Below are positions 24,001 to 27,000 of a DNA stretch of 64,000 bases, piece after piece. The position numbers are program-made. Within the stretch, counting starts at the first letter, position 1. Each line of letters begins with the position of its first letter. Location of the stretch: the NCBI RefSeq assembly GCF_053078305.1, contig NZ_CP166879.1; one strand, written 5' to 3'.

Positions 24001-27000
24001 TTTCAAATAACAGTGTTGTTATGCCAACAGGCGGCTGCACTGTTGATAGTCGTAATGTCACCGTGAATCTCCCGGACTTTCCTGGAAGCGCAGAAATCCC
24101 CCTTGGCGTATATTGCTCAAGTGAACAAAAGCTCTCATTTTATCTTTCGGGTGCTACCACTGACAGTGCTAGACAAGTGTTTGCTAACACAGCACCAGAT
24201 GCAACAAAAGCATCGGGAGTGGGTGTCTCTCTGATGCGTAATGGAAAAATACTGGCTACGGGAGAAAATGTCTCCCTGGGGACAGTAAATAAAAGCAAAG
24301 TACCTCTGGGTTTAAGCGCAACCTATGGACAAACAGGAAACAAGGTTTCAGCCGGAACCGTCCAGTCAGTCATTGGTGTCACTTTTATCTATGAATAATT
24401 GTGATTTTGACATTGGTCTATGCGCTCCATTCACGAAAATTGCGCGGATAATTATTTTGTGAAGGCTATTATCCTACACCTGTAAGAAAATCCGCGCACA
24501 ATTGAAGCCAGAGTCTTATTTTTTATATTAAAAAATATGTTAATTTAAACACTATGAGAGATGATGCTTACCTTATCGTATTTAATCTATTGTTTAACGA
24601 TAATAGATTAAAAATAGAAAGAGAGTAGTCCCCTACTCTTATATATCCATGTTGGCGATAATCCCTTTGTATGTACTGTGCATCATCGCTATTACAAATC
24701 CTAATAATTCATTTCCACACAGGATAAGTAGATGAAGAAAAAAATTGAATCCTACCAGGGAGCTGCCGGTGGTTGGGGTGCTGTTAAATCCGTAGCGAAT
24801 GCAGTACGTAAGCAGATGGATATACGCCAGGATGTTATTGCCATGTTTGACATGAATAAGCCAGAGGGCTTTGACTGTCCGGGTTGTGCATGGCCAGATC
24901 CTAAGCACAGTGCGTCATTCGACATTTGTGAAAACGGCGCAAAAGCAATCGCCTGGGAAGTCACGGATAAGCAGGTAAACGCCTCTTTCTTTGCTGAGAA
25001 TACGGTTCAATCATTACTTACCTGGGGAGACCACGAGCTTGAGGCTGCGGGGCGACTCACTCAGCCTTTGAAATATGATGCCGTCAGCGACTGTTACAAG
25101 CCATTAAGCTGGCAACAAGCTTTCGATGAAATTGGCGCACGCCTTCAAAGCTATAGTGATCCCAATCAGGTTGAATTCTATACTTCGGGCCGCACTTCCA
25201 ATGAGGCTGCCTTTCTTTATCAGCTTTTTGCCCGTGAATACGGGAGCAATAACTTTCCCGACTGCTCCAACATGTGCCATGAACCGACAAGCGTGGGTTT
25301 GGCAGCGAGTATCGGTGTAGGTAAAGGGACCGTGTTGCTGGAAGACTTTGAGAAGTGCGATTTAGTCATTTGCATTGGGCATAACCCTGGTACAAACCAC
25401 CCTCGCATGCTGACTTCGTTGCGCGCTTTAGTGAAACGGGGAGCGAAAATGATCGCCATCAATCCTCTACAGGAACGTGGCCTGGAGCGATTTACTGCAC
25501 CGCAAAACCCGTTTGAAATGCTGACGAACTCTGAGACTCAGTTGGACAGTGCCTACTATAACGTGCGCATTGGTGGTGATATGGCGTTGCTCAAGGGGAT
25601 GATGCGCCTGTTAATTGAGCGCGATGATGCTGCAAGCGCCGCAGGTCGGCCCTCATTGCTGGATGACGAATTTATTCAAACGCATACCGTCGGCTTTGAC
25701 GAGCTACGCCGTGACGTTCTCAATTCCGAGTGGAAAGATATCGAACGTATTTCTGGATTAAGTCAGACTCAAATCGCCGAACTGGCTGATGCATATGCCG
25801 CTGCCGAACGAACCATTATCTGTTACGGAATGGGGATCACTCAGCACGAACATGGTACCCAGAATGTACAGCAACTGGTCAATCTGCTGTTGATGAAAGG
25901 TAACATTGGCAAGCCTGGTGCGGGTATCTGCCCACTACGTGGCCACTCTAATGTACAGGGCGACCGAACCGTCGGTATCACCGAGAAACCGTCTGCAGAG
26001 TTTCTGGCTCGCCTGGGTGAGCGCTATGGCTTCACACCACCTCAAGCACCTGGACATGCTGCAATTGCCAGCATGCAAGCAATATGTACAGGGCAGGCTC
26101 GAGCATTGATCTGCATGGGGGGCAACTTTGCACTGGCAATGCCAGATCGGGAAGCGAGCGCTGTACCGTTAACGCAATTAGATCTGGCGGTACACGTAGC
26201 CACTAAGCTTAACCGCTCTCATCTGCTGACCGCACGGCATAGCTATATTCTGCCGGTTCTGGGACGTAGCGAGATTGACATGCAAAAAAGCGGTGCGCAG
26301 GCGGTAACCGTTGAGGATTCAATGTCGATGATTCATGCCTCGCGTGGCGTGTTAAAACCCGCCGGTGTAATGCTGAAATCAGAGTGTGCAGTGGTCGCGG
26401 GAATCGCGCAGGCAGCACTACCCCAGAGCGTGGTAGCCTGGGAGTATCTGGTGGAAGATTATGATCGCATTCGCAATGACATTGAAGCTGTGCTGCCAGA
26501 GTTCGCCGATTATAACCAGCGCATCCGACATCCTGGTGGTTTTCACCTGATAAACGCTGCTGCTGAAAGGCGCTGGATGACTCAGTCAGGTAAGGCTAAT
26601 TTCATTACCAGCAAAGGGCTGTTAGAAGATCCCTCTTCAGCGTTTAACAGTAAGCTGGTCATGGCGACAGTACGCAGCCACGATCAGTACAACACGACGA
26701 TTTATGGTATGGATGATCGCTATCGAGGGGTATTCGGTCAACGAGATGTGGTCTTTATGAGTGCTAAACAAGCTAAAATTTGCCGTGTAAAAAACGGCGA
26801 AAGAGTTAATCTTATTGCGCTTACGCCAGACGGTAAGCGCAGCTCACGCCGCATGGATAGATTAAAAGTGGTCATTTACCCTATGGCTGACCGCTCACTG
26901 GTGACCTATTTTCCAGAATCGAATCACATGCTAACACTTGATAACCACGATCCATTAAGTGGCATTCCTGGCTATAAAAGTATTCCGGTTGAATTAGAAC

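What the first reader, a model, noticed from the sequence alone, without database searches (positions are those of the whole stretch)
24471..24488. EvgA box upstream of ydeP
ATCCTACA-CC-TGTAAGAA matches the EvgA inverted-repeat consensus. Nearby is a second inverted repeat AATTGCGCGGAT / ATCCGCGCACAATT (24436-24455 and 24487-24506) that overlaps the box and could bind another factor or form a cruciform.
Basis: partly seen in the sequence, partly recalled or inferred. Interest (0 to 1): 0.4.

Follow-up and report, generated by a model that had tools for sequence, protein, structure and literature searches.

The report
Known EvgA operator upstream of ydeP
This is the already-described binding site through which the acid-sensing regulator EvgA switches on the E. 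coli acid-resistance gene ydeP; the second inverted repeat next to it is real but shows no sign of a function of its own.

Summary
The window is E. coli chromosome (ydeQ, ydeP, safA, ydeO). ATCCTACACCTGTAAGAA lies exactly at 24471-24488, 243 nt before the ydeP ATG. It matches TTCYTACA-N2-TGTARGAA with one mismatch. Only two sites in 64 kb match that well, this one and one before safA, against none in 100 shuffles. The same pattern marks the emrK, frc, yfdX and yegR upstream regions. In 95 E. coli sequences, recurrent polymorphism inside the box is confined to the two spacer bases and outer position 2. Held papers state that EvgA binds the ydeP promoter region and activates ydeP. So the main reading is right and already known.

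The second inverted repeat is real: perfect 9-nt arms at 24441-24449 and 24490-24498, 40 nt apart. It adjoins the box rather than overlapping it. Its G+C-rich arms are unlikely by chance (0 of 2000 shuffles). However, the arms vary at the background rate, show no compensatory change, and sit 12 nt further apart in a divergent lineage. No other EvgA box has such a bracket. The right arm lies in a 98-nt promoter block that ydeP shares with safA (66% identity, E 6e-11); the left arm does not. A cruciform is implausible; a second factor is neither supported nor excluded.

The parts
24471..24488 (.). 18-bp EvgA box ATCCTACA-CC-TGTAAGAA, the operator of the ydeP promoter. It spans about -83 to -66 (centre about -74.5) relative to the TSS implied by a 178-nt leader.
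   Evidence: sequence and chance. (same motif at other EvgA-regulon promoters). (polymorphism confined to non-core positions). (literature).
24441..24449 (.). Left arm TGCGCGGAT of the G+C-rich inverted repeat. It is specific to ydeP and lies outside the promoter block shared with safA.
24490..24498 (.). Right arm ATCCGCGCA, lying between the EvgA box and the -35 region. The safA promoter has CTCCGCTCA at the same offset.
24473..24570 (+). Promoter block (box, spacer, core promoter, start region) shared with the safA promoter at 27132-27229: 65 of 98 identical without gaps.
   Evidence: E 6e-11. (40 of 66 downstream of the box, the best non-self position of 127,868 in the window; 11 of 45 upstream)..
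24538..24546 (+). Extended -10-like element TGtTAATTT. safA has TGtTATATT at the same offset from its box. Inferred to be the EvgA-dependent -10.
   Evidence: sequence read directly. It fits the 178-nt leader used in PMC11210196.
24554..24554 (+). Inferred ydeP transcription start, 178 nt before the ATG.
   Evidence: [quoted passage not shown] No TSS was measured here.
24502..24529 (+). Alternative sigma-70-like promoter TTGAAG-16-TATATT. If it is used, the box centre lies at about -57.
   Evidence: scan; the same hexamers are listed for ydeP in the RpoD-holoenzyme SELEX study PMC3946193, with H-NS noted.
24732..27011 (+). ydeP coding sequence (759 aa), the regulated gene.
27130..27147 (.). 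Second EvgA box in the window, TGCCTACAGCTGTAAGAA, 111 nt before the safA ATG.
   Evidence: EvgA binds the safA-ydeO promoter directly.

Best explanation
The 18-bp inverted repeat at 24471-24488 is the operator for the response regulator EvgA (NarL/FixJ family) at the ydeP promoter. At mildly acidic pH the kinase EvgS phosphorylates EvgA. An EvgA dimer then binds the two half-sites ATCCTACA and TGTAAGAA, and transcription starts about 66 nt downstream of the box. It starts from a promoter with a poor -35 and an extended -10-like element (TGtTAATTT, 24538-24546), giving an mRNA with a leader of about 178 nt. Shown here: the sequence, its improbability by chance, recurrence of the motif at other EvgA-regulon promoters, selection on the half-sites, and a spacing between box and core promoter that is close to constant. 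Taken from papers: that EvgA binds the ydeP promoter region and activates ydeP. Inferred: the start site, the -10 element, and activation from an upstream (class I-like) position. The neighbouring G+C-rich repeat (24441-24449 / 24490-24498) most likely has no function as a repeat. Its right arm belongs to a promoter block that ydeP shares with safA, and its left arm is a ydeP-specific sequence of unknown significance.
For: One mismatch to the consensus, with two such sites in 64 kb against none in 100 shuffles; both sit just upstream of EvgA-activated genes. The same pattern hits the emrK/evgA, frc (perfect match) and yfdX (two sites) intergenic regions, 4 hits in 22 kb against 0.22 expected, and the yegR upstream region. 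Among 95 E. coli sequences (29 haplotypes), the three recurrent polymorphisms inside the box fall at position 2 and at the two N positions. The right half-site is invariant and the core has one singleton. My own calculation puts the chance of that placement at about 4 in 816 if three changes fell at random among 18 positions. A divergent Escherichia lineage keeps the box (ATCCTACGCCTGTAAGAA) at the same distance from the ATG, 262 against 261 nt. YdeP homologues in Edwardsiella (85% identical) and Yersinia have no box and no upstream homology. That fits EvgS/EvgA being restricted to E. coli and Shigella. The 66 nt downstream of promoter-proximal boxes share 21-29 identities in an ungapped register. 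The non-promoter directions share 11-19, and random 66-mers 16.8 +/- 3.6. -10-like hexamers lie near offsets 53-59 from the box at most of these promoters. Literature. On the repeat: the arms vary at the background rate (3 of 18 columns against about 0.2 per site), no pair shows a change on both sides, a 12-nt insertion sits in the spacer of the divergent lineage, and the six other EvgA boxes have no comparable bracket.
Against: The primary papers that defined the box (Masuda and Church 2003; Itou et al. 2009) are not in the held library, so the consensus and the footprinting are cited from memory and through secondary papers. The start site rests on one paper's probe coordinates. An alternative promoter (TTGAAG-16-TATATT) is predicted 17 nt further upstream, so the box position could be about -57 rather than -74.5. 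gadE, a reported direct target, has no match within 3 mismatches in its upstream region, so the pattern does not capture every EvgA site. The G+C-rich repeat is compositionally improbable (0 of 2000 shuffles). Both arms are largely retained in the divergent lineage (1 change in 18 positions where about 4 would be expected; my estimate, P about 0.07). A function for it therefore cannot be excluded.
Confidence: 0.9

Rival explanations
1. The G+C-rich inverted repeat that brackets the box is a second operator. A different regulator, or a higher-order EvgA complex, would bind both arms and modulate access of EvgA or RNA polymerase.
For: A perfect 9-nt G+C-rich repeat in a 33% G+C spacer is improbable (0 of 2000 shuffles). 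Both arms are largely retained in the divergent lineage L004/L143, where neighbouring sequence has changed.
Against: The arms are polymorphic at the background rate within E. coli (24443 C>T, 24449 T>A, 24490 A>T). The arm spacing differs by 12 nt in the divergent lineage. There are no EvgA half-sites at the arms beyond chance. No comparable bracket exists at six other EvgA boxes. The right arm is accounted for by the promoter block shared with safA, which lacks the left arm. No held paper names a second factor at this position.
Confidence: 0.08
2. The repeat acts as RNA. It would form a hairpin at the 3' end of read-through transcripts of the upstream fimbrial gene ydeQ, acting as a stabiliser or weak terminator that insulates the ydeP promoter.
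For: The + strand RNA of 24432-24510 folds to -20.7 kcal/mol with the 9-bp stem, z = -2.9. The two one-sided changes seen in the stem (24443 C>T; C>T in the right arm of L004) both leave G-U pairs on the + strand. The stem begins 43 nt after the ydeQ stop codon.
Against: The loop is 40-52 nt and no U-tract follows the stem; the T-run begins 20 nt later. The terminator scan finds nothing on the + strand. Two haplotypes break the closing pair, and no compensatory change exists. There is no Rfam match. The folding window was chosen around the repeat, which inflates the z-score.
Confidence: 0.07
3. The repeat extrudes as a DNA cruciform that presents or hides the EvgA box.
For: Only that the arms are complementary and that the single DNA strand can fold (-12.3 kcal/mol, z = -2.8).
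Against: Extrusion would require melting about 58 bp to gain two 9-bp stems, each with a 40-nt loop. Established knowledge of cruciform formation calls for longer arms and spacers of a few bases. The arms and the spacing are not conserved in the way a structural element would be.
Confidence: 0.01
4. The match to the EvgA consensus is a chance occurrence with no regulatory role.
For: None beyond the fact that no experiment was run here.
Against: No shuffle of 100 gave any site with one mismatch or fewer. The site lies upstream of a gene documented as EvgA-activated. The core positions are conserved while the spacer positions vary.
Confidence: 0.01

Closest known systems
EvgA boxes of the E. coli EvgS/EvgA regulon (safA-ydeO, emrKY, frc, yfdX, yegR)
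   Same: The same 18-bp inverted repeat TTCYTACA-N2-TGTARGAA. It lies upstream of an EvgA-activated promoter, and the register between box and core promoter is similar. This ydeP site is itself one of the described members.
   Different: The window strain carries T at box position 2 (ATCC...), one mismatch from the consensus. K-12-type strains carry G (AGCC...), two mismatches. Only the ydeP box is bracketed by a G+C-rich inverted repeat.
safA-ydeO promoter, 2.6 kb downstream in the same window
   Same: 65 of 98 positions are identical without gaps, from the box through the start region (E 6e-11). The TGtTAnnTT extended -10-like element and the TCCGC-CA flank sit at the same offsets.
   Different: There is no similarity upstream of the box (11 of 45) and no counterpart of the left arm. 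The leaders differ: about 178 nt for ydeP, and about 46 nt for safA if the same geometry applies there (inferred, not measured).
Operators of other NarL/FixJ-family response regulators (for example the RcsB box and NarL heptamer pairs)
   Same: A dimer of helix-turn-helix effector domains binds an inverted repeat with a short central spacer. The TAAGAA-type half-site resembles the RcsB half-site. This comparison is from general knowledge and was not tested here.
   Different: The half-site sequence and the 2-bp spacer are specific to EvgA. The motif found here recurs only at EvgA-regulon promoters among the loci examined.

Membership tests
EvgA box (operator of the EvgS/EvgA regulon) | 18-bp inverted repeat matching TTCYTACA-N2-TGTARGAA | tested here: met
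   One mismatch. Two such sites in 64 kb against none in 100 shuffles. The consensus was recalled from memory (Masuda and Church 2003). It was then checked against other regulon promoters (next row).
EvgA box (operator of the EvgS/EvgA regulon) | The same motif recurs upstream of the other reported direct EvgA targets | tested here: met
   Found at safA, emrK/evgA, frc and yfdX twice (4 hits against 0.22 expected) and yegR. Not found within 3 mismatches upstream of gadE.
EvgA box (operator of the EvgS/EvgA regulon) | Lies upstream of the promoter of a gene whose transcription EvgA activates | tested here: met
   The box ends 243 nt before the ydeP ATG and about 66 nt before the start site implied by the 178-nt leader. 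ydeP is stated to be activated by EvgA.
EvgA box (operator of the EvgS/EvgA regulon) | Half-site bases conserved and central spacer free to vary | tested here: met
   In 95 E. coli sequences the recurrent variants lie only at position 2 and at N9/N10, and the right half-site is invariant. The divergent lineage keeps 17 of 18 positions.
EvgA box (operator of the EvgS/EvgA regulon) | Direct binding of EvgA to this sequence (footprint or gel shift) | not testable with these tools
   [quoted passage not shown] The primary footprinting paper (Itou et al. 2009, recalled from memory) is not held.
EvgA box (operator of the EvgS/EvgA regulon) | Mutation of the box abolishes EvgA-dependent induction | not testable with these tools
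   This needs a reporter experiment.
Cruciform-forming inverted repeat | Long, near-perfect arms separated by a spacer of only a few bases | tested here: not met
   The arms are 9 bp and the spacer is 40 bp, or 52 bp in the divergent lineage.
Intrinsic terminator (of ydeQ) | G+C-rich stem, short loop, and a U-tract directly after the stem | tested here: not met
   No + strand terminator was found in 24350-24780. The loop is 40 nt and the T-run starts 20 nt after the stem.
Conserved structured RNA | Compensatory base-pair changes, or a match to a described family | tested here: inconclusive
   None of 9 pairs shows a change on both sides, 2 pairs have one-sided G-U changes, and 2 haplotypes break the closing pair. 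There is no Rfam match at E of 1 or below. The sequences are too similar to decide.

The most novel reading that the evidence does not exclude
The ydeP and safA promoters are tandem paralogues. A block of about 98 bp, comprising the EvgA box, the spacer, the core promoter and the start region, would have been duplicated 2.6 kb downstream. That would have placed the lineage-restricted small gene safA, and with it ydeO, under EvgA control. On this reading the right arm of the 'second inverted repeat' is simply part of the duplicated block, and the repeat arose when a complementary 9-mer happened to lie upstream of the ydeP copy.
Probability: 0.4. Interest if true: 0.3.

Novelty: already known. 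Interest (0 to 1): 0.1.

Why it matters
The site is the entry point of the EvgS/EvgA acid-resistance cascade at ydeP, and the ydeP promoter is widely used as the reporter for EvgS activity. Confirming it adds nothing new to the biology. Three small additions came out of the check. First, natural strains differ at box position 2: T in this strain and 64 of 95 sampled sequences, G in K-12-type strains. That difference could slightly alter EvgA affinity. Second, promoter-proximal EvgA boxes keep a common register with the core promoter. Third, the ydeP and safA promoters share a 98-nt block, which hints at how a new small gene was wired into the regulon.

Tried and rejected
1. Looked for the primary papers (Masuda and Church 2002 and 2003; Itou et al. 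2009; Eguchi papers). They are not held. Text searches for the consensus and for the box sequences themselves found nothing.

2. Tested whether the left arm is a second, weaker EvgA site. There are no half-site matches near either arm beyond chance.

3. Tested whether an upstream element is shared by ydeP and safA in opposite orientation: 24426-24452 against the reverse complement of 27068-27094, local score 15, reached by 14 of 2000 shuffles. Dropped, because the safA copy is not conserved. K-12-type strains have TTTCGCAATTT there, and the divergent lineage is unrelated.

4. Covariation test of the 9-bp stem is uninformative.

5. Rfam scan of 24300-24800 on both strands found nothing.

6. Searched for homology of the ydeP upstream region in Edwardsiella and Yersinia, whose YdeP is 85% and 67% identical. 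There is none, and no box.

7. Checked papers on DicC, LmiA, CsrA and Reg-Seq for another factor acting at the ydeP promoter. CsrA does not bind the ydeP leader. The others give no site here.

8. Small ORFs in the spacer. The ATG at the inferred start site opens a 24-codon ORF in this strain, but most strains have a stop after 5 codons. The start codon of the 28-codon ORF that overlaps the ydeP ATG is lost in several lineages. Neither was pursued further.

Full report
**Where the window comes from.** A 501-nt query around the finding matches 5,327 of 5,426 complete E. coli genomes. The features under the match are annotated ydeQ (fimbrial protein) and ydeP (acid resistance putative oxidoreductase). 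In a K-12-like record the gene order is hipA, ydeT/S/R/Q, ydeP, safA, ydeO, ydeN. In the window, ydeQ ends at 24398. ydeP is 24732-27011, safA is 27259-27456 and ydeO is 27531-28292, all on the + strand.

**The observation.**
- The 18-mer ATCCTACACCTGTAAGAA sits exactly at 24471-24488.
- It has one mismatch to TTCYTACANNTGTARGAA.
- At one mismatch or fewer the window has two matches: this one and TGCCTACAGCTGTAAGAA at 27130-27147, 111 nt before safA.
- None of 100 dinucleotide-preserving shuffles had any match.
Its perfect arms are TGCGCGGAT (24441-24449) and ATCCGCGCA (24490-24498), with 40 nt between them.
- The right arm begins two bases after the box ends. It adjoins the box and does not overlap it.

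**Testing the recalled consensus.**
- In the 22 kb around evgAS the pattern hits four times against 0.22 expected. The hits are in the emrK/evgA spacer (2 mismatches), upstream of frc (perfect match) and twice upstream of yfdX.
- It also hits 107 nt upstream of yegR, with 1 mismatch.
- Upstream of gadE there is no match within 3 mismatches.
- The pattern is therefore a valid descriptor of most, though not all, reported targets.

**What the held papers say.**
[quoted passage not shown] - PMC11210196 says EvgA activates ydeP transcription.
- PMC9496106 says EvgA binds the safA-ydeO promoter directly, and that EvgS/EvgA and SafA occur only in E. coli and Shigella.
- The primary papers are not in the library.

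**Selection on the box.** I collected 95 E. coli copies of the region (29 haplotypes) from complete genomes and from a metagenome scan. The scan was anchored on a leader sequence outside the features under test.
- Recurrent polymorphisms inside the box lie only at position 2 (24472: T 64, G 30, C 1) and at the two spacer positions (24479 C/T, 24480 C/T).
- The right half-site is invariant. The core has one singleton, at 24478, in a low-coverage contig.
- Elsewhere in the spacer about 0.2 of columns vary.
- K-12-type strains carry AGCC... (two mismatches), whereas this strain carries ATCC....
- A divergent Escherichia lineage (L004 and L143, about 78% identical across the spacer) keeps ATCCTACGCCTGTAAGAA at 262 nt from the ATG, against 261 in E. 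coli.
- YdeP homologues in Edwardsiella (85% identical) and Yersinia rohdei (67%) have neither a box nor any upstream homology.

**Promoter geometry (partly inferred).**
[quoted passage not shown] That places the start at about 24554.
- Just upstream lies TGtTAATTT (24538-24546), an extended -10-like element.
- The box then spans -83 to -66, with its centre at -74.5.
- I aligned the sequence downstream of each box without gaps. C9 A10 and T26 C27 are shared by ydeP, safA, emrK, frc, the proximal yfdX box and yegR. A -10-like hexamer lies near offsets 53-59 at most of them, with frc and yegR off by about 4 nt.
- Pairwise identity over the 66 nt downstream is 21-29 for the promoter-proximal boxes. 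It is 11-19 for the evgA-facing side and the distal yfdX box. Random 66-mers of the window give 16.8 +/- 3.6.
- A sigma-70-like TTGAAG-16-TATATT at 24502-24529 is also predicted. The same hexamers are listed for ydeP in the RpoD-holoenzyme SELEX study, with H-NS noted. If that promoter is used, the box centre is near -57.
- Either way EvgA sits upstream of the -35 region.

**ydeP and safA share a promoter block.** The ydeP-safA pair stands out with 40 of 66 identities downstream of the box. That is the best non-self position among 127,868 in the window, while the 45 nt upstream show 11 of 45. BLASTN gives 65 of 98 ungapped (24473-24570 against 27132-27229), E 6e-11. The right arm of the second repeat (ATCCGCGCA) falls inside this block, where safA has CTCCGCTCA. 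The left arm lies outside it.

**The second inverted repeat.**
- For a function: a perfect repeat of 9 nt or more with at least 6 G/C per arm never arose in 2000 shuffles of the 33% G+C spacer. The 9-mer occurs nowhere else in the window. The divergent lineage keeps the left arm intact and has a single change in the right arm.
- Against a function: within E. coli three of the 18 arm columns vary (24443, 24449, 24490), which is the background rate. No pair changes on both sides, and two haplotypes break the closing pair. The divergent lineage has 12 extra nt between the arms. There are no EvgA half-sites at the arms. None of six other EvgA boxes has such a bracket.
- As RNA or single-stranded DNA the region folds better than shuffles (z = -2.9 and -2.8), but the folding window was chosen around the repeat.
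- It is not a canonical terminator. There is no + strand hit in the scan, the loop is 40 nt, and the T-run starts 20 nt after the stem. Rfam finds nothing.
- A cruciform with 9-bp arms and a 40-bp spacer is not credible on established knowledge.

**Verdict.** The box is the known EvgA operator of ydeP. The adjacent repeat is a real sequence feature with no evidence of function. Its right arm is explained by the promoter block shared with safA.

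Noticed in passing
window 24473-24570 and 27132-27229: The ydeP and safA promoters share a 98-nt ungapped block (65 of 98 identical, E 6e-11). 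It runs from the EvgA box through the extended -10-like element to just past the inferred start. Similarity stops at the upstream edge of the box. This suggests a tandem duplication of a promoter module.
   Followed up: partly
window 24472 (box position 2): A natural polymorphism in the EvgA box: T in this strain and in 64 of 95 sampled E. coli sequences, G in K-12-type strains (30 of 95), and C once. The T allele is closer to the consensus.
   Followed up: partly
window 24581-24591 / 24602-24612 and 24622-24639: There are two further inverted repeats inside the inferred 178-nt ydeP leader. One is a perfect 11-nt A+T-rich pair (TTTAATCTATT / AATAGATTAAA); 21 of 2000 shuffles had a repeat this long or longer. 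The other is a 7-bp hairpin, AGAGTAG-TCCC-CTACTCT, that is conserved across E. coli. An indel of 5 nt (ATACC) next to the first one separates phylogroups.
   Followed up: no
window 24649-24735: A 28-codon ORF ([28 protein letters not shown]) whose TGA stop overlaps the ydeP ATG (ATGA). Its ATG is changed to ATA or AGG in several E. coli lineages, and the divergent lineage starts at a different ATG in the same frame. The last 50 nt before ydeP are very conserved at the DNA level.
   Followed up: partly
window 24554-24628: The inferred transcription start coincides with an ATG. In this strain it opens a 24-codon ORF, because 24573 is C (TAC). In K-12 and most strains the ORF stops after 5 codons (TAA).
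   Followed up: partly
window 27026-27056: A 12-bp perfect hairpin (TTCTTCTGCTGT-CATCCGC-ACAGCAGAAGAA) lies 15 nt after the ydeP stop codon and is followed by TTCCTCATT. It is probably the ydeP terminator or attenuator ahead of the safA promoter.
   Followed up: no
L105 (metagenome contig, coverage 1.4): In this contig the sequence upstream of the position equivalent to window 24520 is unrelated DNA, so the EvgA box and both repeat arms are missing. It could be a rearrangement or an assembly chimera.
   Followed up: no
L002 6919-6936 (emrK/evgA spacer): The single box between the divergent emrK and evgA genes shares the common downstream promoter register only on the emrK side: 23-29 identities with the other promoter-proximal boxes, against 11-18 on the evgA side.
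   Followed up: partly
L005, L006, L008 (Edwardsiella) and L007 (Yersinia rohdei): YdeP is 85% identical in Edwardsiella species, which is unusually close for that phylogenetic distance, and the upstream region is entirely unrelated. This suggests horizontal transfer of the coding region alone.
   Followed up: no
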